A stretch of DNA of 64,000 nucleotides, taken from Planctomycetota bacterium (GTDB lineage Bacteria > Planctomycetota > GCA-002687715 > CAIWVZ01). Of this stretch, positions 1 to 16,637 are shown one piece after another; position 1 is the first letter of the stretch; the number at the start of each line of letters is the position of its first letter. The stretch lies in contig JBGANV010000003.1 in the NCBI GenBank assembly GCA_044222185.1, positions 640,001 through 704,000 of the forward strand. Reading direction: 5' to 3'. Position numbers and translations under genes: made by a program. A model generated the notes under the pieces. It was not told where the DNA came from and searched no databases. It saw nothing but the letters and a program-made list of their open reading frames with translations.

Positions 1-242
1 GCCGCAGGCCCGCGTCATTCATCGCGGCGGCGGCGCGTGGCCCCTTCGCACCCGTGTCCATCGTGGCCCACTGCCCGGTCCCGAAGAAAAGAGTCGGCGG
101 TCGATGCATTGAATAGACCTCAGGTCAGGTGGCCTTCGTGGCTCCATGTCCTTTGGCCCCCATTCAAACCTACCGCGGTCGGGATTGGATTGGAACGGTT
201 CGCTCCACTCGCAGAAATCACCCTGCCGGCGCCGTAATGCCG

Positions 243-1631
243 TTAACCTCCGCGCCGTCCATTCGGGCCCCACTTGCGTGTCGGGATGAAGGCTCGGCGC
301 GGGAAAGAGCGGCCAGGCCGCACCGGGTCGCGGGCGCGGACGATCCGAGCAAGAAGGCGATCGAGGAGCCGGGCAGCGTCTTCGTGGGATCGGGTGAGGA
401 GCAGGCGAACGACGTAGGCAGCGAACCCAAGACACGCGGATTTCGGCGACAGTGCGGAGTAAGGCACTCCCGTGCTTCGTGCGGCGACCGCCATCGTGGA
501 GCGAGCGATAGCCACGAACAGAGCGAGCGTCTGGATTTCCTGGTTCACGCCCTCGACGGACTCCGAGTGGAACTGGCCCTGGCCCAAGTACACGCCCTTC
601 TCGAGCTTGTAGAACGTCTCGATGTTCCAGCGCATCCGATAGAGATTCGCGATATCGGAGCGCGCGATCTCGTCCCTGTCGTGGAACGACGTGAGGAGCA
701 CGGTGCGCTCGCCCTTCGGAGGGCGGACCATGACCGCTCGCACCCGCATTGGAGCACAGTCGTGCAATGGCCCACGCGGAGGCGCGATCGACAGCAGGCG
801 ATCCTTCGCACCACTCGCTGCGAAATCGGTCACGGCTTGGAAGGTGCTTTGCGCAGGGACGCGCATCACGAAGTCGATCCCTGCGTCGGCAAGCATGAGC
901 ATGACTTTGAAGGACGGGTAGCCGCGGTCCAAGACGAGTACGTTGCCGGGTCGCACGCGGCCCAAAAGGTCGTAGAGCTGCGCGCGCTCGGCGTCGTCGA
1001 CCGGCCCGACCACGACGTCGCGCGGCATCTTGCTGACGAGCTTGAAAAGGGTGCTGACGAGCGTCTGTGGGCAGTACGCACCCTTCGGTACCCCGAACTT
1101 CGCCTGCAGTTCGGGCGCGCGCCGCAGGTTCATCTTGGTTCCATCGACAGCAAAGACCCGACGGCCGAACCAACGGTGCTCGGTGCCGAACTCGTCGTCG
1201 AACGCGTCTGCCGCCTGATGGACGAGTCCGCGGACAGCCGCGGCCGGCAGCTTCCGACGGGCCTTGGTGAAGGCGGCAGCGGAGACCGGGGACCTCGTGC
1301 GAAGTTTGAGGCCGAGGGAGGTCGCCTCGTCCCAAAACGCATCGAGCAGATGCCGGTAGCCGGAGCGGTTCCCGTCGGCCACCATGTAGAGGAGGAGCGT
1401 GACGAGCGCCTGCACCCTGAGGGGGCCGCGGCGTGTGAACGCGCCTCGCAGTCCGCAGGCATCGCAGGCATCGCAGGCATCGCAGGCATCGCAGGCATCG
1501 CAGGCATCGCAGGCATCGCAGGCATCGCAGGCATCGCAGGACTTGCGAACGATCCTCGCGCTGGAACGAACGATTCTGCTGAAGAAACTCTTGGTCGGCA
1601 GCGCGAGGCGTCGTCAGCTGTGTCGACGCAT
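243..1631 (-). CDS. IS4-family DDE transposase; in-frame TGA at codon 6 (possible pseudogene or internal restart)
   Basis: Motifs FAVDGT, VLDRGYPS and LYRMRWNIETFYKLEK (IS4 Y-2-R-3-E-6-K signature). The frame of ORF 243-1415 extends upstream to an ATG at 1631 with a GGAGG RBS, interrupted by TGA at 1614-1616. Confidence 0.85.
1455..1540. repeat. 9-bp tandem repeat (GCAGGCATC) x9.5, encoding (Cys-Asp-Ala)n in the transposase frame
   Basis: Nine perfect copies at 1455-1535, then GCAGG. Confidence 0.97.
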
Positions 1632-1893
1632 GCGCGGACCCTCCGTTTGATTGGGGGTCTAGTGAGCGGGCAAGGCTCACCTGGCATACCGCGCAACGAA
1701 GCTCCGGCCCGTCATGCGCAGCCGCCGCAGCTTCTCGCAGCCAGCGCCAGAATCTTCTTTCACCAGTCGAACCGGACGACCGCTGCGGGGCCGCGCTCGT
1801 TCGCGACGGCGGAACGGTCCGAACCCGCCGAGATCGCCAGCCCCGATCGCGCGGCGAGGCCCCCGCCGCACGCCGCGAAGGTTAACGGCATTG

Positions 1894-2759
1894 CGTAGAG
1901 GGGGCGCCCAATTCCTGAATAAGGAAAAACCCCATGCAGCCTGCATATCGGGTTGTAATTGGCGCCCGCGTAGAGGGGGCGCCCAATCCAGACGAGGAAA
2001 AACCACATGTCAAATCCGTTCGGAGTTGTAATTGGCGCCCGCGTAGAGGGGGCGCCCAATCTGGGCTTCGTGATCTGGTGGATCAAAGGCCAAGTTGTAA
2101 TTGGCGCCCGCGTAGAGGGGGCGCCCAATCCACAAGGAGGTCCCGATATGTCGTCCCAGCTCGTTGTAATTGGCGCCCGCGTAGAGGGGGCGCCCAATGT
2201 TCTTTCTCTTTTTTGAGCACTCCAAGGAGGAGTGTTGTAATTGGCGCCCGCGTAGAGGGGGCGCCCAATAATAGGAGAATCACTTGGCTATTTACGTACC
2301 AAGTTGTAATTGGCGCCCGCGTAGAGGGGGCGCCCAATAAAGAAAGGTCCGACATGCGAGTTTATTGTTTGATCGTTGTAATTGGCGCCCGCGTAGAGGG
2401 GGCGCCCAATAAGGAGACCCGCAATGGGTATCAGTTTCGTCGCAGTTCGTTGTAATTGGCGCCCGCGTAGAGGGGGCGCCCAATCGCTCCACATCGGAGC
2501 CAATGAAACAAAGGAAGTTGTAATTGGCGCCCGCGTAGAGGGGGCGCCCAATTTCAGTTAAGGAAAGAAATAGCCATGGCATATAAGGTTGTAATTGGCG
2601 CCCGCGTAGAGGGGGCGCCCAATTTATGGAGATAGACGACCAAGAACTGCTTTCAGTTGTAATTGGCGCCCGCGTAGAGGGGGCGCCCAATTCGCAGCGG
2701 AGAAATCTCCGATGTTCAAGTTCGTTGTAATTGGCGCCCGCGTAGAGGGGGCGCCCAAT
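1894..2759 (-). CRISPR. CRISPR array: 12 full identical 36-bp repeats, 1 truncated repeat, 12 spacers (32-39 bp)
   Basis: Repeat GTTGTAATTGGCGCCCGCGTAGAGGGGGCGCCCAAT (+) starts at 1952, 2025, 2094, 2163, 2234, 2303, 2375, 2449, 2517, 2588, 2656 and 2724; half repeat at 1894-1912. The - strand form has a GGCGCCC/GGGCGCC stem followed by the 3' end ATTACAAC (8-nt handle-like). It is co-oriented with the cas genes and its leader side faces cas2. Confidence 0.98.
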
Positions 2760-3027
2760 GGTCTCCTCGATCGGTTCGAGGAAATCGATGGCGTAACTTG
2801 CTTTGCCGAGGCGTGATAGGTCCCGGAACAGTCTATTCGGATTTCAAATACGGGACGGACCGCACCCTCGCGCACATTGTGCGTTTCCGGCCTGCGTTTG
2901 CCGAGGTCGAGCGCATGTCGCGCTCCCGGCGCTCGTCCGCACAGGCTGGGAGGTCGGATCCGGCGACGCCCCCGATGCCGGGAGACGTCGCGGACATGTG
3001 TCGACGAAGCATAGATCTGCGATCGGA
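2760..3027 (-). promoter_or_regulatory. Putative CRISPR leader
   Basis: Non-coding gap between the cas2 stop and the first repeat, with a small hairpin (CCTCGA-TCGGT-TCGAGG) next to the repeat. Assigned by position. Confidence 0.65.
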
Positions 3028-3303
3028 TCATTGCAACACCATCACCGCCGGCCAACGATCCGGCGGCTCTTGCCACGATAGGCGACGACGCCGGTCCCGT
3101 TCGTCAATCGGGAATAGCGCGAAGCGATCCTTCGCGGAAAGCCGCGATCCGACGTCGCGCTTGAACTTCGCCATGTCCTCCGGGTCGAGATTGACCTCGA
3201 ATACGGACTCCTGAACCCTGGCGCCGTACCGGAGAAGTACGCGTGCGAGCTTCGCGCGCCGACGGTTGTCGCTGACGTCGTAGGTTGCCACATAAAGGCT
3301 CAT
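3028..3303 (-). CDS. cas2: CRISPR-associated endonuclease Cas2
   Basis: MSLYVATYDVSDNRRRAKLARVLLRYGARVQESVFE is a canonical Cas2 N-terminus; 91 aa; ATGA overlap with the upstream cas1 fusion. Confidence 0.97.
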   Translation of the reverse strand: MSLYVATYDVSDNRRRAKLARVLLRYGARVQESVFEVNLDPEDMAKFKRDVGSRLSAKDRFALFPIDERDRRRRLSWQEPPDRWPAVMVLQ

Positions 3304-6173
3304 GGATGTTCGAACGTCCAGAAGACTGGCTCGCGGACGCAGAGGGCGCGGCGGATTGCCCGCGCCATGGCGGTCATGTGGTGCCGGTACGTCCGCGCTT
3401 CGACGCGTTCCTTCGCGCCACACACGATCGCGAACGTCGTCTGCACGTGGAGCATGAATCGCTGGATGGCATCCGGCTTCAGGTGCATGGGGAGTCCAAC
3501 GTCTTGGGTGGCCTGGAAGTCGCGGGGGCGGAGCTCGCGTGCCGCCGTCAGCACGACGCGATCCATCAGATGCCTGAAACACTCCTGGATGTCCGAGGCC
3601 AGGGCGGCGTGTCCGGCATGAGGTCGATGCAGAAGACCGATCGCCGGCGCCAGGCCTTCTTGCTGAAGGACGGCGACCAGCAGCTTGTGCAGCGAGGTTT
3701 GCGCCAAGTTTATCATCGCATTGACGGGATCGTGGGCCGCTGGCGCCTCCCGACGTCGGAACTTGAACCATGCGGGGAGCCGCGTGCCGAAGTCGCTCCA
3801 CCACGCGGCTGCGCCGGACCCTTCGAACCCGAGCAGTTCGTCCAGACTCAGTGCTCCGCTGCATTTTTCGGCCAAGGCCCTGAGTGAAGCCGGCAGGGAC
3901 TTCGAACTCCGGTCGGTCAGCGTGACTTCGGCCAGGCTGGCGCAGTTGCGAAGCTTCGACGCGACGAACAGCTTGGCGCATGCAAGCCGGAACTTCTCGT
4001 CGGCGGCCGTCGCAACCTGTGCGTCGAGGACTTCGGCATCCAAGTCAGTGTCGCGGCCCGTCAGGATCCCCCACGGCGTGCCGGCCGCGGATGAGATGTG
4101 CACGGGAATGTCGCGGGTCAGAAGTCGCGCGACCGCAGATGCTCCGAGAGTGGTCGTCCCCAGTACTACGACTTCGCGGATGCGATCGATCGGCGCGCCA
4201 ACGACGTCGCGCCCACCACGATAGGTACAGACGAGGCGCCCGTTCCGTACGCGCAGCATCGAGGCGCCGGGTCCCACGATCACGGTGGCGCCCTGCGAGA
4301 CCGGCGGTTGCCCAAGCTCGCCGGGAAGGGGCGCGAGATCGGCGGGTGGACCGAAGTCCGGTTTCGCCTCATGCCATCCGAGGTCGTCAATCAACGAAGG
4401 CGTTCCGGTCGGTGACGACCGCCATCTGTCTTTGCGTTCGAAGCGGTACCCAAGGAAAGTGAACGGTTCGACGAGATCGAGTTGCTCGGTCTTGTCTCCG
4501 TTCAACGCGAGTGAGAGGTGAGCCGCGGCTTCGGTCGCGTCGGCAAAAACGGCATCCGCTTCGGCGCGGTCCTTGTAGAGAACGAGGAAATCGTCCGCGT
4601 ATCGCACCAACACGTGAGAGTGATGGGCAATTTCCTCGTCGAATGCGTCAAGGAAGAGGTTGGCGAGCATGGGCGAGACCGGGGCACCCGTCGGCACGCC
4701 GCGATCCGGCGCCGGCGCCCCTATTCGCACCCACTTCATCAGAGCGTCGGTTAGGACCTCATCGGCCACGAAACAGCGGATCTTCGCTTCGAGTACGTCG
4801 TGGGGAATCGAGTCGAAGAAGCGGCGGAAGTCCGCGCGGAGCGCATGCCGGTACCCCCGCTGGTAGAGGACCTGGATGCGGGCCGCAGCTCGCGATCGAC
4901 TCAATCCCCGCCGGTATGCGAACGACGACTCCTCGAAGATGAGATCAAGTGCCGGAGCGAGCCGATCCACGACAAGTCGCTGAAGTGCGCGATCCAAGCG
5001 CGGCGGTATTGCGAGGGTCCGATCGGCCCCGCGCCCCTTCGGGATCTTCATGATGAAAGGCCGGCCGGGCTCGTACTCCCCTCGCGCGAGCGCCAGCGCG
5101 CTGACCTTGACGATCCCGCTTTGCAACTTGAACTCGCTAGCGACACGGTCGAGTCCTGCGGAACCCAGCGACAGGTTCAGGAGGCTTGTCGAGCGTGCGC
5201 ACCGCGTGTCATCGGGCCCCAACTCGGTGATTCTGTATGACCCGAATCCGAAACGGGTGACCTCGCCGACACGTACGTATTGTCCGCGAACGAGGGCGTC
5301 GGCCGCGTGCGGTCCGACGCCGCCGAATCGAATTCGTCCGACCGCTCCGCTGATCTTGTTGGGACCCTCAGTGAACTTGCGTCGACCCTTCGTGCTTGGC
5401 CAGGCGACGTCCAGCCACATCAGCCGGTTTTCGGCGACGAAGAGGCTCGCTGAAGCGCGGGGATCCGCCTCGGGATTGGCGTGCCGCATTCCCAACTCCC
5501 GGAGGCGGTCGAACAGACGCGTGCAGAACACGTCGGGTTCGAACCCGTCACCGTCGAAGTAGTAGTGGTAATCCGCGCGCGTCTTTTCGGTGCGGCGCCA
5601 TTTCAGTGGGGTCAAGAATTCCAGGGTCAGAGTGTCGGCGCCCCGGAGCCGCAGGATTTCGGCCTCGAGCCGGTTTTCAGAGATGGCCTGTGGTGCAGTG
5701 CCCGGTTCCAGCACCTCGCCGGCAACCAGGTCCCGCACCTCAATCACGTCGAAGTTGCCTCCGAGCTTGGGCTGGTCTGTGGGCTGATCAACGCCGAGTC
5801 GGCGGAGTCCCTTGACGAGGCGCCAGACGAGTTCCCCAGCATCCTTGGCGGTCTCACCGAGGTAGCTGAATCCGAATGCGTACTCCTCATCGGGACCGAT
5901 CACCAGGCGACATTGCTCCGGAGCGTCGACCATGATGCCTTCGGGGATCTCTGGCTTGGTTCCAGCGCTCGCCGCGTTCGAGTTCGCCAGCAACGCATAC
6001 ACAACGGGAAGGTGGTGGTAATGAAGCTCAACTCGGCGCGTGACGCGAATCAGGATGCGGATGCGGAAGACGAGCGTCCGGGGACGAGCGCTGCGAGGAG
6101 GGCGGGCATCCTTCTGGTCGGCCGGTCGGACTGCTTGGGTCGAGCCGGCCTGGCTTGGCCGATCAACGTTCAC
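3300..6173 (-). CDS. cas1: Cas6-reverse transcriptase-Cas1 fusion
   Basis: Cas6 G-loop GQYVRVGEVTRFGFGSY. RT motifs ADFRRFFDSI, GVPTGAPVSPMLANLFLD and YADD (4590-4601). Cas1 motifs LLGFEG, DPVNAMIN and GLLH...ASDIQECFR. GTG start at 6173 overlaps the upstream stop (GTGA). Confidence 0.93.
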   Translation of the reverse strand: MNVDRPSQAGSTQAVRPADQKDARPPRSARPRTLVFRIRILIRVTRRVELHYHHLPVVYALLANSNAASAGTKPEIPEGIMVDAPEQCRLVIGPDEEYAFGFSYLGETAKDAGELVWRLVKGLRRLGVDQPTDQPKLGGNFDVIEVRDLVAGEVLEPGTAPQAISENRLEAEILRLRGADTLTLEFLTPLKWRRTEKTRADYHYYFDGDGFEPDVFCTRLFDRLRELGMRHANPEADPRASASLFVAENRLMWLDVAWPSTKGRRKFTEGPNKISGAVGRIRFGGVGPHAADALVRGQYVRVGEVTRFGFGSYRITELGPDDTRCARSTSLLNLSLGSAGLDRVASEFKLQSGIVKVSALALARGEYEPGRPFIMKIPKGRGADRTLAIPPRLDRALQRLVVDRLAPALDLIFEESSFAYRRGLSRSRAAARIQVLYQRGYRHALRADFRRFFDSIPHDVLEAKIRCFVADEVLTDALMKWVRIGAPAPDRGVPTGAPVSPMLANLFLDAFDEEIAHHSHVLVRYADDFLVLYKDRAEADAVFADATEAAAHLSLALNGDKTEQLDLVEPFTFLGYRFERKDRWRSSPTGTPSLIDDLGWHEAKPDFGPPADLAPLPGELGQPPVSQGATVIVGPGASMLRVRNGRLVCTYRGGRDVVGAPIDRIREVVVLGTTTLGASAVARLLTRDIPVHISSAAGTPWGILTGRDTDLDAEVLDAQVATAADEKFRLACAKLFVASKLRNCASLAEVTLTDRSSKSLPASLRALAEKCSGALSLDELLGFEGSGAAAWWSDFGTRLPAWFKFRRREAPAAHDPVNAMINLAQTSLHKLLVAVLQQEGLAPAIGLLHRPHAGHAALASDIQECFRHLMDRVVLTAARELRPRDFQATQDVGLPMHLKPDAIQRFMLHVQTTFAIVCGAKERVEARTYRHHMTAMARAIRRALCVREPVFWTFEHP

Positions 6174-8803
6174 TTCGGTCCTCTTCGTGGATCCTTTGGC
6201 AGTCGCGACCCGGGCTCCTGGATCTCCCTGACCGGGTCGGGGAGAAGGTGGCCGCCGCTCTTCCTGTTGCTGACGAACCACTGGTAGCGCTCGTGATCCG
6301 GCTTGTTCCCCACTGGATTGGGAGGGTAGTCCGGCTTGGGCTCAGAGCTGACGTCCGCGCACATGAACTTCAACTCGTCGAGCATGGTTTTCACCCACTT
6401 CTCCTTCGTCGCGGCGTCGCCGAGGTGGGAAAGGAAATCCCGAATCGAATCGCTCGCGGTCAAGTTTCGTCGGGCAGGATCGGTCAAGGTCCGGCAACGA
6501 TGGTCCTTGTTCTTGCTCGGTTCGCTCAAGTCATCCACGACCAAGTTGGTCACCGCGATCGTGGCGCAGCCGAGGCCGAGAGGTTTACCGCGTCCCAGGC
6601 CGTGCAACCCCGATGGCGACAGCTTCCCGTCTTCGTCGGGCTCAAGCTGCAGCGTAAGCGATGTCAAAAGCGCCCCAAGCTCGAGCTTGGTGAGGTTGTC
6701 GAAGTCGACGCGGAATGTGAATTGAAGGCCCGAAGGAAGCGGCGTGATGGTCTGGTTCTGCGGCCCTTTTTCCTCATGCCTGGAAACGCGATCGGGTCGA
6801 CGTGACTGGTGAGGTCCAGCCACGCGCCGGTACATCTTCCGTCCGCTGAGCGAGGCTTCCTCGACGCGATAGTGCGGAATCGTTGACGCCCGGGCGTCCT
6901 TGAGTATTGGCGGCCATCGTGTTTCTTTCGCCGTCTCGTACGCAGGTGGCCCGACGGGCCTGAGATAGAACGCCGTCGTGGTCGGTCGCGGCGCGCCAAG
7001 GATCGGCAGAGTCCGCCACGCGATGTGACCGTCAGCCTTTGCCCAATTCGTGCTTCCGCTCGCATTCAGCATTCCGTGACTGAACCGCAGGTGGCCGGCA
7101 CTCGCTTGGCGAGACTTGTCTGAGTCCCCTTCCTGTTTCACCCATCCGAAAACGCGACAGGCCGGACACTGCCTGTCGATCGACCTGCACGGGTGCATTT
7201 CCTTACAGAGCAACTCGCCTCGTGTATTCGGGTAGGCCAGTCGGGGAAGTGCCACTGGGTAGAGACCGACAACTTTGTCACCGCGTAGCAAGGCGTAGAA
7301 CACGCTTCCCCTCTTGGGGAGAGATGGGCCGCTATCCCTACCATCCAAGAAATCGCTCGGGTAAGGAGCGTCAGGCGACGGGCTGAGGACACGAGGTGTC
7401 GGAGGGAGTGACTCGTCATATAGCGCGCGACGATGTCGATCGAAATAGCGGGTGAGTGAGCTTTTCAGGAGTTTGACGACCTCGGCATTTGCGTCGAGCC
7501 TCACCCGTGGTCTGATTGCCGTGACCGATTCAAACCAGAAGCTCTTGAGCCGCTCGTCGAAGTTCTTAAGCGAATCGGGCGCGTTGAACGGTGCCGACGC
7601 ATCGAAGAAGAGGCGCTCGTCGTGCTTCTTTTCAATGTTCGGGCCGGTCCGGTGGAGGTAGCCGAAGACGATCCACTCGTCCGCGTTGCACAGCGGTGGA
7701 GTGATGCTCTGATCACTGTCGGGCAGTGGCATGACTGCGTGTGCCCGTCGGTAGCAATACCGAAGCTTGCCGTCCGCGCCATATCTTCTGTCCGCTGTCC
7801 GTTTGATCGTCGCGACAACCGGCGCACCGTCCGGGATCGTTGGCACGTGCGCGACGATTCCCGTTGCGCTCCCGTTGTGTGCCTGGTGCTTGTGGCCGAC
7901 GCGAACTGCCCCGGCGTAGGCTGGCACGAACGCCGCTCGCAACGTCTGAGGATCATCGCCTTGCGCGCGCCCATCCAACTGTTCAAGGACGATCGAGCCA
8001 TCGTTTATGACGTCCACGACTCGCACGGGGACGTAACTCGGCCTATCGGCACTCTGCGCGCCCCCCCCCCGATGCGCTGGGTCAAAGCCAACCCGGATGT
8101 CCAGCCCGCCGTCATCGAACTGGGAGAAGCATGAGGCCGTGAGCGTCTCGAAAATCGACCGGACCATCCCGCGCAGCGAGGAGGCCGGGACGGCCGGCGT
8201 GGTGCGATCGCGGACGATGTCGTCGAGCGCCCCCGGCCTCCACTCAGGAACGTCATCGAGGGTGAACCACCCGGCGGACTTGTGGCCGTTCGCGCCTTTG
8301 TTCGCCTTCCGGGCGTCGGGGATGAACCACTCGCTCCGCGTCGTGAGGCGGCACTCGACGAAGCCGGTGAGGCGATCGGCGTGAAACCGGTCGTGGCTGG
8401 CTGGCGCGGAGCGCCCAAACAACTCGTCCGTCGCAAGTTGCCCGAGCCCCTCTCGAGGAACGCCGACGAAGTTGTACGCGTGGATGAAGCGGGTCGCGTC
8501 GGGCAACGGAGTCAGCGTCCGAATTGGTCGAGAATCCGCCGGGATTGACGACGGTTCGGCCTCTGCCGGATCAGCCAATCGCTGAACAGCGACCAACGTC
8601 GGTTCGCCGCCTTCGACGTCCACGGTGAACATCGCTTCGAGCATTGGTGGCACTTGGGCGATGAGGTGCGTCGGCACGCAGACCTCCCATTCGTCCGCGT
8701 TGCTCGGAACAGACGTCTGCCCCGCCATCTGCTCGATCACGATTCGGATCGAGCCTCGACCTTGACTGATCCGCTTCACTTTCCCACGAAACGGTTGAGT
8801 CAT
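6170..8803 (-). CDS. cas7: Type III-D Cas7 with large insertion (TIGR03986-like RAMP)
   Basis: HAYNFV, PAVPASSLRGMVRSIFETLT, CPACRVFGWV, GRKMY, FRVDFDNLTKLELGALL and the G-loop GLGRGKPLGLG. ATG at 8803 overlaps the csx19 stop. Confidence 0.92.
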   Translation of the reverse strand: MTQPFRGKVKRISQGRGSIRIVIEQMAGQTSVPSNADEWEVCVPTHLIAQVPPMLEAMFTVDVEGGEPTLVAVQRLADPAEAEPSSIPADSRPIRTLTPLPDATRFIHAYNFVGVPREGLGQLATDELFGRSAPASHDRFHADRLTGFVECRLTTRSEWFIPDARKANKGANGHKSAGWFTLDDVPEWRPGALDDIVRDRTTPAVPASSLRGMVRSIFETLTASCFSQFDDGGLDIRVGFDPAHRGGGAQSADRPSYVPVRVVDVINDGSIVLEQLDGRAQGDDPQTLRAAFVPAYAGAVRVGHKHQAHNGSATGIVAHVPTIPDGAPVVATIKRTADRRYGADGKLRYCYRRAHAVMPLPDSDQSITPPLCNADEWIVFGYLHRTGPNIEKKHDERLFFDASAPFNAPDSLKNFDERLKSFWFESVTAIRPRVRLDANAEVVKLLKSSLTRYFDRHRRALYDESLPPTPRVLSPSPDAPYPSDFLDGRDSGPSLPKRGSVFYALLRGDKVVGLYPVALPRLAYPNTRGELLCKEMHPCRSIDRQCPACRVFGWVKQEGDSDKSRQASAGHLRFSHGMLNASGSTNWAKADGHIAWRTLPILGAPRPTTTAFYLRPVGPPAYETAKETRWPPILKDARASTIPHYRVEEASLSGRKMYRRVAGPHQSRRPDRVSRHEEKGPQNQTITPLPSGLQFTFRVDFDNLTKLELGALLTSLTLQLEPDEDGKLSPSGLHGLGRGKPLGLGCATIAVTNLVVDDLSEPSKNKDHRCRTLTDPARRNLTASDSIRDFLSHLGDAATKEKWVKTMLDELKFMCADVSSEPKPDYPPNPVGNKPDHERYQWFVSNRKSGGHLLPDPVREIQEPGSRLPKDPRRGPK

Positions 8804-9276
8804 GATCCACCTTCCTCGACTCCACGCCTCCCTGCCCGGTTCAGTGTGACCCATCGGACCAACGCACCACCGTCAGCCGGATGAACCCGGACGGTCAACG
8901 TGGCCGCGCCCTCGCAACCAGCGCGTTTCGTCGCCCACTCCTTTGCGATCGAGATGTGCTGCACTTCGCCATCGCTCAGGCTGATTGCCGGGACGGAGGA
9001 TTGCGACCCGTCAACGCCGATGACCCGCACGAGCCAGGCGTCTGACGTGTCCTCAAACGATCGGCGACGGGCGAAGACCTCGACATCCGGCCCGAAGGCG
9101 CGAACCAACCAGAGACTCTCCAATGACGCGAGACCTGGGTCGGCCAAGGCGAGGAACCCGGACGACAGCGGGCCTTCGATAAAGGCATCCGTGCACGCCG
9201 TTCTCACGGACGTCAGCACCGCAACAAGGGCGGTATCGTGCATGCGTGCGGCCCAACATGATCTCGTGGCGCTCAT
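8800..9276 (-). CDS. csx19: Csx19-like small subunit (type III-D)
   Basis: 158 aa, translationally coupled between cas7-cas7 and cas7-insertion; VRAFGPDVEVFARR motif and C-terminal VRW. Mainly a synteny call. Confidence 0.72.
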   Translation of the reverse strand: MSATRSCWAARMHDTALVAVLTSVRTACTDAFIEGPLSSGFLALADPGLASLESLWLVRAFGPDVEVFARRRSFEDTSDAWLVRVIGVDGSQSSVPAISLSDGEVQHISIAKEWATKRAGCEGAATLTVRVHPADGGALVRWVTLNRAGRRGVEEGGS

Positions 9277-10793
9277 CGGCGTTCTCCACTGTTCGTTGAA
9301 CCCGCAACGCTCGGACTGGTTGGGCGTTGAATCAACTGCCACAACGCGTCGACGAAAGGTTGGCACTGATTCAAGGATCGAGCGGGTGGCTCCGCATCAG
9401 TCCGTGATCCATCCGGCACGCCGCGCACCACACAAGGCGTCACGTCGAACACCCCGTTCCCACGCGATGATGCGGCGCCAAACGCAACGCGCTTGTCCAT
9501 GAGATCCCGGGCGAAGAGCGCGAGCAACCCGAACGCAGGCTCGGTGACGTCGTTGTCGCTACCGCGCGACGCAGCGACCTCGATGCGCACCTTGAAGTGC
9601 TGCCCCATCGCGAGTCTCGCGTTGAACTTCTTGCCGTCGGCAGCGCCGCCAGTGAAACGATCGATGGCAACGTAATCGATCGGGATTGCCCTCGAACGAG
9701 GCCCATCCAGCCGCGTCACGCATACCCGCACGCACGACGCGTAGTTCTCGTTCCCGAATACCCGGCAAGCGAAACACAGTTCCGCAGGCTGGGCATCTGG
9801 CAGCGTACGGCTGCACGCTCCGGCGCCCGTCGGGTCGCATGCCGCACTCTCGTTCAGCGTGCGTAGGATTCGTTCACAGTGAGATCGCAGCACGCCGCGG
9901 AAGCTGGTACCGGGCAGCTCTGGCCGATCCCCTCCCCGTGGGGCGGAGTCGTATCCGGTGCGCACCGATTCGGTCGGATCGTTGACAAGCAACGTCGTCT
10001 GATCGGTCGACTTGAGGGCGAACTCAATCGACGGCCACCGCGACGGTTGTTGCTCGTGGAACTCAACAGCTTGCGTCTCGGTCCACGCCGTGTCGGAGTC
10101 ATCTCCATGCAGGCACGCGGCGATCAGTGCATTTGCGTTGCGCGAGTTCCTCGCGCGCACGGTAATCAGCGTGGCTTCCACTCGCCCAAGCCCCTGCGCT
10201 GTTCGCGCGCCGATTCCGACTCCTCCTCTACCGATCTCGGCAAGCGCCTTCTTCAGCGTGTCTATTTCTTCAGCCGTCAGGTCTCTTCCTTCGACCACGA
10301 TCAGGAAACGGGCACCGGGAGCGACCTCCTCGTGACTGAACAAGCGATGGTCGGCGGCACTCCGTCGAGTCCGGTCGATCGACACGTTGTCGACCACACG
10401 AACCGACGGTTGTTCGATCTGGGCGTCGTGGAACGTGAGCTTCGAGCAGCGTGCTACGGCACGATTCGTGGCCGCGTTCGCGTCCCGCGTCACGGGACGC
10501 ACGTTCCCGAAGAGCTCGCAGCACTTGCACTGACAAGGCTCGGCGCTGCCTGGCGATGCACTACCGCCCGTTGCCAATACACACTTCGCCGTCGTGCCCG
10601 TCATGCTCTCCACCACGCCACGGAGAACGCCCGCCAAAGAACTCCCAGGAATCACGCACGTCCCGTCCAGTCGACGTCGAAACGCAATGTCGGAGGACTG
10701 CGATCCGCGCCCGTTGCTCGTGAGCAACGGCGTCGTCGTCGTGCACTCCATCTTGAAGCGGTGTTCGGTGATTCCGGTCGCCGACTCGGTCAT
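9273..10793 (-). CDS. cas7: Cas7-Cas7 (tandem Csm3-like RAMP) fusion
   Basis: Two RAMP units: IPGSSLAGVLR...CELFG...IDR...GIGARTAQGLG and LPGTSFRGVLR...CFACRVFG...AIDRFTGG...FGAASSRGNG. Confidence 0.92.
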   Translation of the reverse strand: MTESATGITEHRFKMECTTTTPLLTSNGRGSQSSDIAFRRRLDGTCVIPGSSLAGVLRGVVESMTGTTAKCVLATGGSASPGSAEPCQCKCCELFGNVRPVTRDANAATNRAVARCSKLTFHDAQIEQPSVRVVDNVSIDRTRRSAADHRLFSHEEVAPGARFLIVVEGRDLTAEEIDTLKKALAEIGRGGVGIGARTAQGLGRVEATLITVRARNSRNANALIAACLHGDDSDTAWTETQAVEFHEQQPSRWPSIEFALKSTDQTTLLVNDPTESVRTGYDSAPRGGDRPELPGTSFRGVLRSHCERILRTLNESAACDPTGAGACSRTLPDAQPAELCFACRVFGNENYASCVRVCVTRLDGPRSRAIPIDYVAIDRFTGGAADGKKFNARLAMGQHFKVRIEVAASRGSDNDVTEPAFGLLALFARDLMDKRVAFGAASSRGNGVFDVTPCVVRGVPDGSRTDAEPPARSLNQCQPFVDALWQLIQRPTSPSVAGSTNSGERR

Positions 10794-13120
10794 GACTTGT
10801 CTCCTCGAGCGAGATCAGATGCGGTCGCACGGAGACGTTCAGCGGCTTCCGCGTCCCCGCAGTTCCACCCTGAAATGGAGGCGAGCAGTTTGTCCAGCGG
10901 CCGTTGACGGTCCGCGCGTGGTTCTTTTCGGCCTTCGAGTGCCTCCGTGACGGTTTTGCGCCACGTCGCTCCCCGTTGCGCCGCCAGCAACAGAAGCCGC
11001 GCGAGTCCGCTCCGCTCCGAGGCAGTCATCTCATCAGTGAATGACTCGCCATCAGCCGTGGGATCACAACTCGCGCTGCGCGACGACACCTCCGCACATG
11101 CGGTGAACGCAGCACCCGGGATGAGCGTCGCAAAGCGAGGAGACGCTAACTGGCCATGACTGACGGCCTCCTGGCCGAGCAGATTCACGACGATGCGTCC
11201 GAAACCTTCGCCGCGACGGAATCCGATGCCGCGCTCTTCGGCTGTGACGAGTAACTTCGCAACGGCAGCCCTATCGGCATCCGGACTCAAGCGGAACTCG
11301 AACATTGAACCTGCAACAATCGCCACGTCGTCGGTGCGTGGAACGCGCGGGACGCCATTGAAGCCACTGATGGTGCGCGGCGAGCTGAAAGCTGAGTTAA
11401 TTGAGAACTGCGCGGGGCCCTTGCCGCCGATCAAACTCCAGAACTCGTCGGCGCTCAGTGTGGTGAGCGGTCGCAGCATGTCGTCGCATGCGATGAGATC
11501 GCTGTAGAGCGTTACGGTGAACGATTCCCCCTTGAGATCATCGGTCGTGATCGCTCGCGAAACGAGGCCCGGGTAGGGTGAGTCCGACGCGCTCGCAGCC
11601 TCGCTCGAAGGAGCAACCGCTGCATGCGACAGGAGCGTCAGTCGAAGCCCGCCGTGACCTCGCGAGATCGCGCGGCCCACGTGCGCCTCGAAGGACGTGC
11701 CTAACTGCATCTCGATGAAATCGACGAGTTGGGCTGGCCCGTGCATATGGCCTGCGAACCACGTCCCACGTTCGATCACCTCTGTTGCATAAAGCTCGCC
11801 GTCCTTGCCGCGTTGGGTATCGGAGTCGATGGCGGTGCGTTGGATGATTCGCATCGACGGAGTGCACGCGCTGATCTCCTGACCTCCGAAGGTCCCGTTG
11901 AGTAGAGACGCAAATCCTGAAAGCGGTTGGAGCGTCTCGCCACAAAGACACGGTACCTGTGTCTCGCGCTCGCCTGGCGCGTCCGAGACGTCAGGCGCCC
12001 ACCCGCACGTGTCGTGGCCGGTCCGGAGATCTGTCACGCCGTGAGGCACATTGACCGCCCCGGGGTTCCGCCCGACACCGGGGTACAGCTTGCATGTGTG
12101 AAGATGCTGCGGCATCGGGAACGGCGCGGACTGCTCGACCTCGGGATGCGAAAGCGGGTAGAGGGGCCCAAACACGACGGCTTCGCGTGCGAAGACGGAC
12201 TCGAACTCAGATCCTGCGTCCGTGCCAACTCCCTTCGCGAGGAGTCGGGCGGCGATCGCGCCGCGCACGGATGTTCCCGGCACGTACGCAAGGCTATGAA
12301 CAACGTGTCCGGCCTCGGGTGAGCCGGCGACGGCGAGATTGGACACTGCGAACGCGACAACCACGCGGGACGTCCAGGCTGCGGGCGTCGCTGCCGCTGT
12401 ACCCGCCTGGGACGCCGCCTCGGGTACGGTTCGGCTGCGCGCGTCGTTGGCATCGCTGGTCGTTTCCGGTACGTCTCCCGGCTGCTGCAGCACCGCGCTC
12501 AGTGCACGCTCGAACTCGCCGTGGCGGACCACTATCGGCGTGCCGTTGGGTGCAGGCACCTGAAGGCCCTTGAATGGGCCCTCCACAACCCTGACGGTCA
12601 CCTTTGCCTGTCCCTTGCCGCGGCGGCGTTGCCCTCCGATCGCGCGGATGCGCCGCAGCGCAAGGATCAGCAGCGCGACCGCAACGTCCGAAAGAGGCTG
12701 ACGCGAGGTAAGCCGACATCGGAATTGTCCGGTCTCCGCGTCCTCGAAATGGAACAGGTGCCCCTTGAGCGCCCGGCCGGTGATCCGGTCGCGGCTGCTC
12801 CGCCCGGTGATCTGCGTGGTCCGCTTCGCCGGGACGCTTGCACGGATTGAACGAGCGTCGCGGAAGATGACGGCGCCGCTGCGGTCTCCGTTTCGCCCGC
12901 GGCTTCCGAAGATCTGCGTCACACGCGGATCAGCGTCGCCCTTCTCTGGGAACAACTCGGCCGCGGCAGCCCGTGCGAGGCCCTTGATCGTACTCGCCGG
13001 GATGACGGCAAGGCCGTCCTCGTCCTTGACGATCCCGGCATCGATTGTTCGGCCGACGCCGAATCCTGATCCGATGTGAAACTCCGCTTCCATCGTGATC
13101 GTCACTTCGAGATCGAGCAT
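10790..13120 (-). CDS. Cas7-Cas5-Cas11 fusion (type III-Dv-like)
   Basis: N-terminal Cas7 (FHIGSG, IDAGIVKD, IPASTIKG, IGGQRRRGKG). Central Cas5/Csx10 (YVPGTSVRGA, TAID, VGRAISRGHG, GIGFRRGEGFG). Short helical C-terminal tail assigned to Cas11 by analogy only. Confidence 0.85.
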   Translation of the reverse strand: MLDLEVTITMEAEFHIGSGFGVGRTIDAGIVKDEDGLAVIPASTIKGLARAAAAELFPEKGDADPRVTQIFGSRGRNGDRSGAVIFRDARSIRASVPAKRTTQITGRSSRDRITGRALKGHLFHFEDAETGQFRCRLTSRQPLSDVAVALLILALRRIRAIGGQRRRGKGQAKVTVRVVEGPFKGLQVPAPNGTPIVVRHGEFERALSAVLQQPGDVPETTSDANDARSRTVPEAASQAGTAAATPAAWTSRVVVAFAVSNLAVAGSPEAGHVVHSLAYVPGTSVRGAIAARLLAKGVGTDAGSEFESVFAREAVVFGPLYPLSHPEVEQSAPFPMPQHLHTCKLYPGVGRNPGAVNVPHGVTDLRTGHDTCGWAPDVSDAPGERETQVPCLCGETLQPLSGFASLLNGTFGGQEISACTPSMRIIQRTAIDSDTQRGKDGELYATEVIERGTWFAGHMHGPAQLVDFIEMQLGTSFEAHVGRAISRGHGGLRLTLLSHAAVAPSSEAASASDSPYPGLVSRAITTDDLKGESFTVTLYSDLIACDDMLRPLTTLSADEFWSLIGGKGPAQFSINSAFSSPRTISGFNGVPRVPRTDDVAIVAGSMFEFRLSPDADRAAVAKLLVTAEERGIGFRRGEGFGRIVVNLLGQEAVSHGQLASPRFATLIPGAAFTACAEVSSRSASCDPTADGESFTDEMTASERSGLARLLLLAAQRGATWRKTVTEALEGRKEPRADRQRPLDKLLASISGWNCGDAEAAERLRATASDLARGDKS

Positions 13121-13122
13121 CT

Positions 13123-14727
13123 TCAGACTCCCCAGAGGCGCTGCCCATCGCACAGGTCAGGTATGGCGGTCCACTTGGCCGATGGGACCTCGTCCGTCCA
13201 AGGGACGGCAGACGACGACGGCTCAGTCGGTGCGGACGGATCGCCGAGTGCTTTGAGGGCCGCGACCCACTGCGACTCCGCTGCAGCGAACCGTCTCAGC
13301 CGTGCACGCCACGCGGCATACGTTCTGTCCAATGTCGGCAGCAACGCCGAGAACGGGATCGCTAAGCCGGCTTCCGCTTCGATCCGCGCGACACTTCCCC
13401 ATTCGCGTGTCTCGTGCAACTTGCTCGCCGGAAAAGAGGCACCGAGTTCGCGACACGCGTCTCGGAATGCCCCGAGGCTCCGTGGCCCGGTGCCCTCTGC
13501 CTTGAATGGACGCCCCGTCAGGCGAATGGCATTGCGACCGTGCACCTTCTGCCGATCGCCAAGTACGACGCTCGCTTCAACGCCCGATTCGCTCACGATC
13601 GCGTAGTCGGCGGCACCGACGTTCCATTCGAGCCGCTTTCGCGTTGCCTTGGCCTCGCGGAGCAGGCGCGTCGCGAAGTCATACGCGATCCGGAACGGGA
13701 AATGGGGCCCGACGATCGCGATCCCGGAGGAGATCGTGAGTCCTTCGAGCGGGCTGCCGGGCTTGGAGTGCTTCGCCACGAACTCCTTTGTGAGTTCATG
13801 CACGAACGGGAGGCCGATCGAGCCTCGCGTCACGATGACGAGGTCGTCACCGGCGCAATAGATCGTTTCGGCTGGGAATTTCGCGAGATGCTTCGGCGGG
13901 TCCTCGCTGGAGAGTTTGTCGATGAGTTGTTTGACGACAGTTTCGACCGCGGACACGGCGCTGGCCTGAATTGCCGCCTGTAGGAGCTTCGAGAATTCCG
14001 ACACCTTGTCGAGGGGGGTGGCCGCGAGTTTCCTTCCTGCCCCGTCGACATCGGCGACGACGACTGCAAGCCCGAGCGGGTCATCGCCGGCGATCTCATC
14101 GAAGTCCTTGGCGCGGCGGACGTCCTCGTTCCAATCGATGGTGGCCGAGTTTCCCGCGGAAGCTTCTGGCGGCGCGAACACAACGCGCGTCCGACCGCTT
14201 CCCTTTTTCTCGCACAACGGTCCAAGCACCCGTTCAGCCGTCACTATTCCAGTCGGCGTCTTCACTGTCACGACTTCAAGGCCACAGCCGTCGCATCGCA
14301 TGGCCGTCGGGAAGTGCTGGCTGCCGACGTCGACCTGCCGTGCGCGGCGGAAGCGTTGCAATTCCTCGACCGCGGCCTCGCGGGCGCGCTCCGCACCGTT
14401 TGGGTCGGCAGCGACGATGCCGCTCACGACCAGCTTGTCCTCTCCGAGGTGCTTGGTTGCCTCGTGCCGAACGGTCGACACGAACTTCGCCGCGGTCGCC
14501 TCCAACTGGAACCCAAACAGTCCGGCGCCACCGGCGGCAAACACGACAAGGGCGTCTGTTCCAGCGTCGGCTGCGCATTTGCGCAGGATTCCGTCCGGAT
14601 CCTTGTCGAGCCCTTCGAGAAGCTGACTCGCTCCCGCAACCTCGCGCAGCTTGGTCGAACCAAGCAGGTACGCCTTGATGTGGTCGACATCAGTCGCGAC
14701 GAAGAACTTGGAGTTCGCCGGATTCAT
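13123..14727 (-). CDS. cas10: Cas10, compact, no HD domain, Palm2 motif AGDD
   Basis: TDVDHIKAYL...KLREVAGASQLL (Palm1), CDGC, VADVDGAG, IYCAGDDLVIV and LTISSGIAI...FPF. The protein starts directly at Palm1. Confidence 0.93.
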   Translation of the reverse strand: MNPANSKFFVATDVDHIKAYLLGSTKLREVAGASQLLEGLDKDPDGILRKCAADAGTDALVVFAAGGAGLFGFQLEATAAKFVSTVRHEATKHLGEDKLVVSGIVAADPNGAERAREAAVEELQRFRRARQVDVGSQHFPTAMRCDGCGLEVVTVKTPTGIVTAERVLGPLCEKKGSGRTRVVFAPPEASAGNSATIDWNEDVRRAKDFDEIAGDDPLGLAVVVADVDGAGRKLAATPLDKVSEFSKLLQAAIQASAVSAVETVVKQLIDKLSSEDPPKHLAKFPAETIYCAGDDLVIVTRGSIGLPFVHELTKEFVAKHSKPGSPLEGLTISSGIAIVGPHFPFRIAYDFATRLLREAKATRKRLEWNVGAADYAIVSESGVEASVVLGDRQKVHGRNAIRLTGRPFKAEGTGPRSLGAFRDACRELGASFPASKLHETREWGSVARIEAEAGLAIPFSALLPTLDRTYAAWRARLRRFAAAESQWVAALKALGDPSAPTEPSSSAVPWTDEVPSAKWTAIPDLCDGQRLWGV

Positions 14728-16493: not shown

Positions 16494-16637
16494 CTCGACC
16501 TCCTCCGCTGTCCGGCTCCAACCGCCACAGGGTTCGTATCCCCAGCGATAGTTCAGCCATGGATTCACCCGCGCCAACCGACTCCCCCTGCGGGCGACAT
16601 CGCCGCGGAGCTTAGGGTGGCCGGCCCGACCTGTCAA

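What the first reader, a model, noticed from the sequence alone, without database searches (positions are those of the whole stretch)
1913..2723. CRISPR spacers are mostly ribosome-binding sites plus start codons; predicted crRNAs are antisense to translation-initiation regions
SEEN on the + strand. S1 1913: TCCTGAATAAGGAAAAACCCC-ATG CAG CCT GCA TAT CGG. S2 1988: CCAGACGAGGAAAAACCAC-ATG TCA AAT CCG TTC GGA. S4 2130: CCACAAGGAGGTCCCGAT-ATG TCG TCC CAG CTC. S6 2270: AATAGGAGAATCAC-TTG GCT ATT TAC GTA CCA A. S7 2339: AAAGAAAGGTCCGAC-ATG CGA GTT TAT TGT TTG ATC. S8 2411: AAGGAGACCCGCA-ATG GGT ATC AGT TTC... S10 2553: TTCAGTTAAGGAAAGAAATAGCC-ATG GCA TAT AAG. S12 2692: TCGCAGCGGAGAAATCTCCG-ATG TTC AAG TTC. 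These 8 of 12 have an SD-like purine tract at normal spacing, a start codon and a stop-free frame, all on one strand. S5 ends in AAGGAGGAGT (SD only); S9 (GGAG-CCA-ATG) and S11 (TT-ATG GAG ATA...) are weaker cases. Only S3 is plain coding-like sequence (LGFVIWWIKGQ). KNOWN: type III complexes bind RNA complementary to the crRNA, RT-Cas1 fusions can acquire spacers from RNA, and initiation sites are a small fraction of any genome. INFERENCE: this RT-linked type III-D system is focused on mRNA initiation sites, by biased acquisition or by selection for guides that hit accessible, conserved RBSs and block translation. I know of no description of such a bias.
Basis: partly seen in the sequence, partly recalled or inferred. 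Interest (0 to 1): 0.95.

Follow-up and report, generated by a model that had tools for sequence, protein, structure and literature searches.

The report
CRISPR guides aimed at gene starts
A bacterial RNA-targeting CRISPR system with a reverse-transcriptase spacer-capture enzyme holds twelve immune memories, and eight to eleven of them copy the ribosome-binding site and start codon of unknown foreign genes; that is far more than chance or related systems give and hints at how such enzymes sample RNA.

Summary
Window 1893-2759 is a real type III-D CRISPR array, and the genome has no other. It lies downstream of Cas6-RT-Cas1 and Cas2 and is most likely transcribed on the minus strand, which makes the crRNAs antisense to the plus-strand text.

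- **Signal:** 8 of 12 spacers have a Shine-Dalgarno 4-mer 4-13 nt before a start codon and an open frame on the plus strand. The other strand has 0 of 12. None of 20,000 shuffles reached 8 (mean 0.75).
- **Weaker cases:** S5, S9 and S11 are partial cases of the same kind. Only S3 looks like ordinary coding sequence.
- **Source:** the spacers are foreign. GC3 is 46% against about 75% at host gene starts, and there is no match in the host.
- **Protospacers:** none were found.
- **Relatives:** 15 arrays beside related RT-Cas1 genes show only 18 of 155, so the bias belongs to this array and not to the family.

A bias towards start and stop codons is already in print for the F. saccharivorans Cas6-RT-Cas1-Cas2 system (review PMC10828431). 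This scan has also noted weaker versions on other DNA. The best reading is biased RNA sampling during spacer capture. Selection, ribosome protection or an RNA-virus source are not excluded.

The parts
235..1893 (-). IS element with 22-of-24 matching terminal inverted repeats and a DDE transposase ORF (243-1415, minus). It has cut the far end of the array inside a repeat.
Evidence: Inverted repeats printed. PF01609 DDE_Tnp_1 at E 3e-19. No second copy in the genome.
1893..1912 (-). Truncated repeat: the last 20 nt of the repeat, in plus-strand text
1913..2759 (-). CRISPR array of 12 spacers and 12 exact 36-nt repeats, read on the minus strand. Spacer S12 is the one nearest the leader.
1913..1951 (+). 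S1: AGGA, 8 nt, ATG at base 22, 5 more codons, stop triplets upstream
1988..2024 (+). S2: AGGA, 8 nt, ATG at base 20. It shares 14 of 15 bases of the SD-to-ATG core with S1.
2061..2093 (+). S3: no start-site features. It looks like coding sequence, with GC3 of 9 in 11 in frame 1.
2130..2162 (+). S4: AAGGAGG, then ATG at base 19
2199..2233 (+). S5: a T-rich stretch followed by AAGGAGGAGT at the spacer end. The SD is present but no start codon lies inside the spacer.
2270..2302 (+). S6: TAGGAG, then TTG at base 15
2339..2374 (+). S7: AAGG, 6 nt, ATG at base 16
2411..2448 (+). S8: AAGGAG, then ATG at base 14
2485..2516 (+). S9: GGAG, 3 nt, ATG at base 19. This is a weaker case because the gap is short.
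2553..2587 (+). S10: TAAGGAAAG, then ATG at base 24, stop triplets upstream
2624..2655 (+). S11: ATG at base 3 followed by 9 open codons. Any SD would lie outside the spacer.
2692..2723 (+). S12: GGAG, 9 nt, ATG at base 21. The SD sits in a 5-bp inverted repeat (seen by eye).
2760..3027 (-). Leader between cas2 and the first repeat (GC 0.627)
   Evidence: No sigma-70-like site was found.
3028..3297 (-). cas2
   Evidence: PF09827 at 1.2e-15 on residues 229-299 of ORF 3028-3981. PADLOC Cas2_IIIb.
3300..6281 (-). Cas6-RT-Cas1 fusion with YADD at residue 561
   Evidence: Pfam Cas6, RVT_1 and Cas1. PDB 7kft Cas6-RT-Cas1 at E 2.3e-66 over residues 78-927. YADD.
6170..8854 (-). Large Cas7 (III-D type)
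   Evidence: PADLOC Csm3 and Cas7_IIId, 2.4e-70
9273..10793 (-). Double Cas7 (III-D type)
   Evidence: PADLOC Cas7_IIId 4.4e-53. RAMPs 1.9e-35.
10790..13153 (-). Cas7-Cas5 (Csx10) fusion
   Evidence: PADLOC Cas5_IIId 3.5e-26 and Cas7_IIId 2.8e-17
13123..14727 (-). Cas10d, short, with AGDD in place of GGDD and no HD motif found
   Evidence: PADLOC Cas10 4.3e-44 and Cas10d 4.2e-35. Motifs.
14724..16637 (-). CARF protein with an R-x4-H (HEPN-like) motif at residue 550
   Evidence: PADLOC CARF_HEPN 2.2e-19 and Csx1/Csm6 1.1e-13. Motif.

Best explanation
This is a working-type type III-D CRISPR array, transcribed on the minus strand and filled by a Cas6-RT-Cas1/Cas2 module. At least 8, and probably 10-11, of its 12 spacers are copies of the translation-initiation regions of foreign genes of lower GC: the SD, the start codon and the first 3-9 codons. 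They are inserted so that each crRNA pairs with the mRNA across its start codon.

The most likely cause is the capture step. The RT-Cas1 complex samples RNA, or transcribed DNA, unevenly and here takes the exposed gene-boundary segments of invader transcripts. Orientation is set by an integration preference, by loss of useless sense-oriented spacers, or by both.

On infection the crRNP would bind and cut the mRNA at the start region and switch on Cas10d. The CARF-HEPN RNase would then degrade RNA.

Shown: the array, the cas genes, the motif enrichment, the foreign composition, and the lack of this bias in relatives. Inferred: the strand of the crRNA, the RNA origin of the spacers, and the capture step as the source of the bias.
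For: - Motif: 8 of 12 on the plus strand, 0 of 12 on the minus strand, and 0 of 20,000 shuffles reach 8. The strict motif gives 6 of 12 against 0 of 12.
- Position: 9 of the 10 spacers with a start codon are centred within 6 nt of it.
- Gene junctions: stop triplets lie upstream of the SD in S1, S6 and S10, as at junctions between genes.
- Foreign composition: GC3 after the start is 23 of 50 (46%) and spacer GC is 0.47. At 1,697 confident host starts GC3 is 0.749 and the mean window GC is 0.615.
- No host match longer than 17 nt.
- The capture enzyme looks intact: Cas6, RT (YADD) and Cas1 domains, matching PDB 7kft over its length.
- Published precedent for a capture-step bias: F. saccharivorans Cas6-RT-Cas1-Cas2 takes most spacers near start and stop codons and prefers the antisense orientation (review PMC10828431, passage read). 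The V. vulnificus III-D RT-Cas1 also inserts spacers antisense without its effector genes (PMC6821258, passages read).
- These biases are said to differ between systems, which fits a bias seen in this array and not in its relatives.
Against: - No protospacer was found, so no spacer is tied to a real gene start.
- The 15 arrays beside RT-Cas1 genes of 27-44% identity show 18 of 155 on the target-sense strand and 10 of 155 on the other. The strict counts are 4 of 155 and 1 of 155.
- V. vulnificus III-D RT-Cas1 is reported to have no start or stop bias.
- An AT preference alone does not reach the observed level. Lowest-GC host windows carry the motif on either strand in only 17.5-20% of cases. 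The source looks about 47% GC overall, so start regions would not stand out there by composition.
- There are only 12 spacers. S1 and S2 share a 14-of-15 core and may not be independent samples.
- The older part of the array was lost to an IS.
- No RNA data exist for the strand of the crRNA.
- The primary paper for the precedent (Schmidt 2018) was not held.
Confidence: 0.5

Rival explanations
1. Selection, not capture. Spacers are taken evenly, but only guides that pair with start regions protect well in this host. Start regions are unstructured, so the crRNP can reach them. Binding or cutting there also stops translation of the cistron at once. Such guides would therefore be the ones retained.
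For: All 8 motif-positive spacers are in the one orientation that makes a useful type III guide. The duplex with the crRNA would cover the start codon in 10 of 12 cases. Cas10d carries AGDD in place of GGDD and has no HD motif, so direct RNA binding and cutting might matter more here.
Against: If selection favoured such guides in general, other type III arrays of the same phylum should show it, and they do not: 18 of 155. Cutting anywhere in a message also inactivates it and also triggers Cas10. In what I read, the S. thermophilus type III-A hot spots arise during capture and depend on transcription (PMC13575424).
Confidence: 0.2
2. The source explains the pattern. The spacers come from RNA replicons (ssRNA or dsRNA phages) or from very short transcripts. 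In these the only exposed or end-proximal stretches are the ribosome-binding sites, so any RNA-based capture would return start regions.
For: Spacer composition does not follow the host: GC 0.47 and GC3 46%, against a 67% GC host with GC3 of 0.749 at its gene starts. From recall, RNA phages need not follow host GC. An RT is present with YADD. The organism occurs in bioreactor and activated-sludge metagenomes; from recall, these habitats are rich in ssRNA phages. S1 and S2 share one start-site core, as genes of one small replicon might.
Against: There is no match in the phage collection, which holds RNA phage records, at E <= 10. Three spacers gave no exact match in viral contigs. Ten different start regions would need several small replicons. 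The first bases of the spacers are not purine-rich, as transcript 5' ends would be.
Confidence: 0.2
3. Chance or base composition. Purine-rich, AT-richer spacers imitate SD plus ATG.
For: The loose motif is met by 6.8% of random host windows and by 6.5% of crRNA-sense spacers of other arrays (10 of 155).
Against: None of 20,000 composition-preserving shuffles reach 8. The opposite strand of the same spacers gives 0 of 12. The binomial probability of 8 or more in 12 at the rate of other arrays is 1.1e-5.
Confidence: 0.01

Closest known systems
Fusicatenibacter saccharivorans Cas6-RT-Cas1-Cas2 (Record-seq; Schmidt et al. 2018, seen only through the review PMC10828431 and PMC13501316)
   Same: It has the same Cas6-RT-Cas1 fusion. 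Its spacers are reported to come mostly from areas near start and stop codons, to prefer the antisense orientation, and to have no PAM.
   Different: That result comes from an over-expression assay in E. coli, with host transcripts as the source and a strong AT bias. It is described as enrichment flanking gene bodies, not as spacers that straddle SD plus start. Here the pattern is in a natural array, 8-11 of 12 spacers straddle the start, and none is purely stop-proximal. Sequence relatedness to the F. saccharivorans protein was not tested, because I held no sequence for it.
Thiomicrospira Cas6-RT-Cas1 (PDB 7kft/7kfu; PMC8102632)
   Same: The three-domain architecture matches over residues 78-927 at E 2.3e-66.
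   Different: The passages I read give no information on where its natural spacers come from.
Vibrio vulnificus YJ016 type III-D RT-Cas1 (PMC6821258)
   Same: It is a type III-D system with RT-Cas1. New spacers are inserted antisense to mRNAs even without the effector genes.
   Different: It is reported to have no bias at start or stop codons and to have a GC bias. It lacks the Cas6 fusion, according to that review.
Streptococcus thermophilus type III-A adaptation hot spots (PMC8860593, PMC13575424)
   Same: Spacers are enriched close to gene starts, and this depends on transcription.
   Different: It has no RT and takes spacers from DNA. The peak lies 10-50 bp downstream of the start codon, and removing the start codon raised uptake. 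Here the spacers are centred on the start codon.

Membership tests
CRISPR array | Identical direct repeats of 24-48 nt separated by unique spacers of similar length | tested here: met
   12 exact 36-nt repeats and 12 unique spacers of 32-39 nt
CRISPR array | Adjacent cas genes including cas1 and cas2 | tested here: met
   Cas2 and Cas6-RT-Cas1 lie within 270 nt of the array
Type III-D CRISPR-Cas | Cas10 large subunit of the III-D kind | tested here: met
   PADLOC Cas10 4.3e-44 and Cas10d 4.2e-35. Pfam Cas10 palm2 7.2e-13.
Type III-D CRISPR-Cas | Csx10-type Cas5 and several Cas7 (RAMP) genes, some of them fused | tested here: met
   Cas5_IIId 3.5e-26. Cas7_IIId hits in three ORFs.
Type III-D CRISPR-Cas | Cyclase GGDD motif in Cas10, needed for signalling to CARF effectors | tested here: inconclusive
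   The motif reads AGDD. A CARF protein with R-x4-H lies next door.
Cas6-RT-Cas1 fusion | Cas6, group-II-intron-like RT and Cas1 domains in one polypeptide, with the RT active site YxDD | tested here: met
   Pfam PF10040, PF00078 and PF01867. YADD at residue 561. PDB 7kft match.
Cas6-RT-Cas1 fusion | Spacers acquired from RNA | not testable with these tools
   This needs an intron-junction or RT-mutant capture assay.
Start/stop-proximal capture bias of the F. saccharivorans kind | Spacers concentrated at gene boundaries and oriented antisense to the transcript | tested here: inconclusive
   The motif evidence is strong, but no protospacer was mapped and the crRNA strand is inferred.
S. thermophilus type III-A hot spot | Peak 10-50 bp downstream of the start codon | tested here: not met
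   Spacer centres lie -5.5 to +6 nt from the start in 9 of 10 spacers.

The most novel reading that the evidence does not exclude
The Cas6-RT-Cas1 complex of this system captures the mRNA fragments that initiating ribosomes protect, roughly from -20 to +15-20 around the start codon. These fragments would survive when the neighbouring CARF-HEPN RNase degrades cellular RNA during an infection. Immune memory would then be written specifically from translation-initiation sites. The resulting guides would both mark the invader and block its ribosome-binding sites.
Probability: 0.1. Interest if true: 0.85.

Novelty: new variant of a known kind. Interest (0 to 1): 0.55.

Why it matters
How RT-linked CRISPR systems choose which parts of which RNAs to remember is still open, and the natural spacer sets of these systems have been called enigmatic (title of PMC5513706). 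In this natural array two thirds or more of the memories straddle ribosome-binding sites. That gives a concrete, testable signature: the capture complex either sees gene-boundary RNA preferentially or is fed ribosome-protected fragments. It would also matter for RNA-recording tools built on these enzymes, because it predicts which part of a transcript gets recorded. If selection is the cause, it would show that start regions are the best targets for type III guides.

Tried and rejected
**Protospacer search: nothing found.**
- BLAST (words of 11, E <= 10) of the whole array against 50,697 phage records gave one 26-nt hit at E 3. That hit lies over the truncated repeat and the start of S1.
- The same search against 72,556 plasmids gave none.
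- The host genome gave a best match of 17 nt.
- The array used as a BLAST query against 401 genomes of the phylum gave a best E of 0.0036 for 24 nt, which is chance level for 401 genomes.
- Exact scans of S8 and S1 in viral contigs, and of S12 in metagenome and viral contigs, gave 0. The other nine spacers were not scanned in those collections.

**More copies of this array: none found.**
- The repeat pattern gave 0 in metagenome contigs and 0 in genome contigs.
- The genome has only this array.
- The search for related loci with the fusion protein found no relative.
- The closest proteins in 5.8 billion are 45% identical.
- The order and the class each hold 23 genomes, of which 4 have a match.

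**Sequencing runs.**
- No RNA holder was listed.
- The contigs of four DNA runs stop at the array edges, so they gave no new spacers and no strand information.

**Other negative results.**
- Promoter scan of the leader: 0 sigma-70-like sites. This is not informative for this phylum.
- AT bias as the sole cause is rejected as insufficient.
- The idea that starts lie in frame with the repeat: 7 of 10, P = 0.02 post hoc. By eye only 2 of 7 G032 spacers do the same, so I treat it as chance.
- I first read the far repeat as decayed. It is in fact cut by an IS.

**Literature.**
- Six full-text searches were run.
- No paper holds 'type III CRISPR' with 'Shine-Dalgarno' and 'protospacers'.
- The one paper holding 'RT-Cas1', 'ribosome binding site' and 'spacers' is an RNA-phage review, seen only in the listing.
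- The papers listed were judged by title alone.
- PMC5513706 holds none of my start-site terms.
- Schmidt 2018 and Silas 2016 were not held.
- I did not ask for supplements. The metagene plots of Schmidt 2018 and the supplementary results of PMC13501316 could narrow or remove the claim of novelty.
Full report
**What is there.**

Window 1893-2759 holds 12 exact copies of a 36-nt repeat and one truncated copy (1893-1912). They separate 12 unique spacers of 32-39 nt. It is the only CRISPR array in the 7.08-Mb, 67% GC genome.

All neighbouring cas genes lie on the minus strand:
- Cas2 (about 3028-3297).
- A Cas6-RT-Cas1 fusion (3300-6281). It has the Pfam Cas6, RVT_1 and Cas1 domains and YADD at residue 561. 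It matches the solved Thiomicrospira Cas6-RT-Cas1, PDB 7kft, at E 2.3e-66 over residues 78-927.
- Three Cas7 or Cas7-Csx10 genes of the III-D type.
- A short Cas10d with AGDD in place of GGDD and no HD motif.
- A CARF protein with an R-x4-H motif.

**Strand of the crRNA.**

The array lies downstream of cas2 on the minus strand, after a 268-nt leader. The minus-strand repeat folds into a hairpin followed by a 9-nt single-stranded tail ending in AUUACAAC, the usual shape of a Cas6 substrate with an 8-nt tag. On the plus strand the hairpin sits at the 3' end with no such tail.

The arrays of the three relatives whose fusion gene is on the minus strand (G194, G352, G167) have the same layout. I therefore take the crRNAs to be the reverse complement of the plus-strand text. 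This is an inference. No RNA run was listed, and the DNA contigs stop at the array.

I first counted the odd far repeat as a decayed terminal repeat. It is a repeat cut by an insertion sequence. The IS has 22-of-24 terminal inverted repeats at 235 and 1893 and a DDE transposase ORF at 243-1415 on the minus strand. The older part of the array is therefore lost, and the 12 spacers are the leader-proximal ones.

**The observation.**

On the plus strand 8 of 12 spacers have an SD 4-mer 4-13 nt before ATG or TTG and an open frame to the spacer end. On the minus strand 0 of 12 do. None of 20,000 shuffles reach 8; the mean is 0.75 and the maximum 7. A stricter motif (5-mer SD, ATG only) gives 6 of 12 against 0 of 12.

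| Control | Loose-motif rate |
|---|---|
| Random host windows | 6.8% |
| Host windows with GC <= 55% | 8.5% |
| Lowest-GC 35-nt window per 1-5 kb of host DNA, either strand | 17.5-20% |

Three of the four remaining spacers are partial cases:
- S9 has GGAG, 3 nt, then ATG.
- S11 opens its frame at base 3.
- S5 ends in an SD-like run.

In 9 of the 10 spacers with a start codon, the spacer centre lies within 6 nt of that start.

**Where the spacers come from.**

They are not from the host. There is no match longer than 17 nt. The composition is foreign: spacer GC is 0.47 and GC3 of the codons after the start is 23 of 50. At 1,697 confident host gene starts, GC3 of codons 2-8 is 0.749, and only 9.3% of the -19..+17 windows have GC <= 0.50. 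The cas locus itself has GC 0.635, so it is not a recent import from a low-GC donor.

S3 is different. Its GC3 is 9 of 11, which is host-like coding sequence.

I found no protospacer in phages, plasmids or 401 genomes of the phylum. Three spacers gave no exact match in viral contigs, and one of them (S12) also gave none in metagenome contigs. Mapping to real gene starts thus rests on the sequence features alone.

**Is it a family trait?**

No close relative exists. The best protein in 5.8 billion is 45% identical, and the repeat occurs nowhere else that I could search.

Among 401 genomes of the phylum, six carry a full-length Cas6-RT-Cas1 of 35-44% identity, and others carry RT-Cas1 of 27-30%. 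I fetched their surroundings and scored every array that the script found, with the strand judged from the repeat end.

| Arrays | Spacers | Loose, target-sense | Loose, crRNA-sense | Strict, target-sense | Strict, crRNA-sense |
|---|---|---|---|---|---|
| This array | 12 | 8 | 0 | 6 | 0 |
| 15 other arrays | 155 | 18 | 10 | 4 | 1 |
| 3 arrays of the G032 kind (L038, L080, L078) | 50 | 13 | 3 | 4 | 0 |

- Fisher tests of this array against the 15 others give P = 4e-5 (loose) and 6e-6 (strict).
- The three arrays that share the repeat end of genome G032 may show a milder version. Against the other arrays P is 0.02 for the loose motif but 0.10 for the strict one.
- Kin are not independent, and I set the strands by eye, so these P values are rough.

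The bias is thus extreme here, faint or absent in relatives, and not a general property of RT-linked type III systems.

**What is known.**

- The review PMC10828431 (passage read) states that the F. saccharivorans Cas6-RT-Cas1-Cas2 complex takes AT-rich spacers, mostly from areas near start and stop codons, and prefers the antisense orientation. It also states that the V. vulnificus III-D RT-Cas1 shows no start or stop bias and that the M. mediterranea system shows no sequence specificity.
- PMC6821258 (passages read) reports antisense insertion without effector genes.
- For type III-A of S. thermophilus, which has no RT, spacers peak 10-50 bp downstream of start codons. The hot spot needs transcription and not translation (PMC8860593 and PMC13575424).

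I could not read Schmidt 2018 itself. None of my six searches turned up a natural type III array described as dominated by SD-plus-start spacers.

Earlier notes of this scan report weaker versions on other DNA (e1-4317882, e1-2400113, e1-2627998, e1-4125156). I did not test those notes.

**How it most likely works.**

I put the cause at the capture step with confidence 0.5. Capture biases of this kind are documented, they differ between RT-Cas1 systems, and a general selective advantage of start-site guides should also show in the relatives. An AT preference alone is not enough.

Three readings remain open:
- **Selection (0.2).** Guides that reach unstructured start regions and block translation are the ones retained.
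- **RNA-replicon or short-transcript source (0.2).** This is suggested by the composition, which does not follow the host, and by the sludge and bioreactor habitat.
- **Ribosome protection (0.1).** As a special form of capture bias, the enzyme is fed the fragments that initiating ribosomes protect from the CARF-HEPN RNase. The spacer spans, 13-23 nt upstream and 12-25 nt from the A of the start codon in 9 of 10 spacers, are compatible with such fragments. My motif criterion itself also restricts the spans to about that range, so this is not evidence for the idea.

**Verdict.**

The system is a new, distant member of a known kind. The spacer bias is an extreme natural form of a bias already reported for one experimental system. 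The cause is unresolved because no target was found.

Noticed in passing
window 235-1912: A single-copy IS has inserted into a CRISPR repeat and removed the older part of the array. It has 22-of-24 terminal inverted repeats and a DDE_Tnp_1 transposase ORF at 243-1415 on the minus strand. A further 188-codon ORF at 1130-1696 lies in another frame. The two long ORFs at 129-1898 (+) and 19-1680 (-) have no family hits.
   Followed up: partly
window 1921-1935 and 1994-2008: S1 and S2 share a 15-nt SD-to-ATG core with 14 of 15 bases identical, while their flanks differ. Only 3 of 300 shuffles give as good a pair. They may be two genes of one invader that share a start-site motif.
   Followed up: partly
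window 1913-2723: In 7 of 10 spacers the distance from the start codon to the spacer end is a multiple of three, so the frame runs on into frame 0 of the repeat (P = 0.02, post hoc). This is also why ORF 1934-2455 (173 codons) runs through seven repeats. Probably chance.
   Followed up: partly
window 2698-2711: In S12 the SD (GGAG) lies in a perfect 5-bp inverted repeat with a 4-nt loop just before the ATG. It looks like a start site that is masked by a hairpin. Seen by eye only.
   Followed up: no
L038 2407-3706; L080 1106-2311; L078 1187-2481: Three arrays of another family of the phylum (G032, G235, G428) share a 12-nt repeat end. They may carry a milder start-site enrichment: loose motif 13 of 50 on the target-sense strand against 3 of 50 on the other. 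By eye, three G032 spacers begin two bases before an ATG, like S11 here.
   Followed up: partly
window 13123-14727: Cas10d is short (534 aa). It has AGDD where GGDD is expected and no HD motif, yet a CARF protein with an R-x4-H motif is encoded next to it.
   Followed up: no
window 16638-17687: A 349-codon ORF at the head of the cas operon has no hit in Pfam, PADLOC or NCBIfam. It has a hydrophobic N-terminus and an Ala/Arg-rich helical-looking remainder.
   Followed up: no
window 1700-3300: Pieces of the leader and cas2 region at 99% identity or more occur in activated-sludge and sludge metagenome runs of three further studies besides the bioreactor run, which probably gave the genome. The contigs are short and of low depth.
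   Followed up: partly
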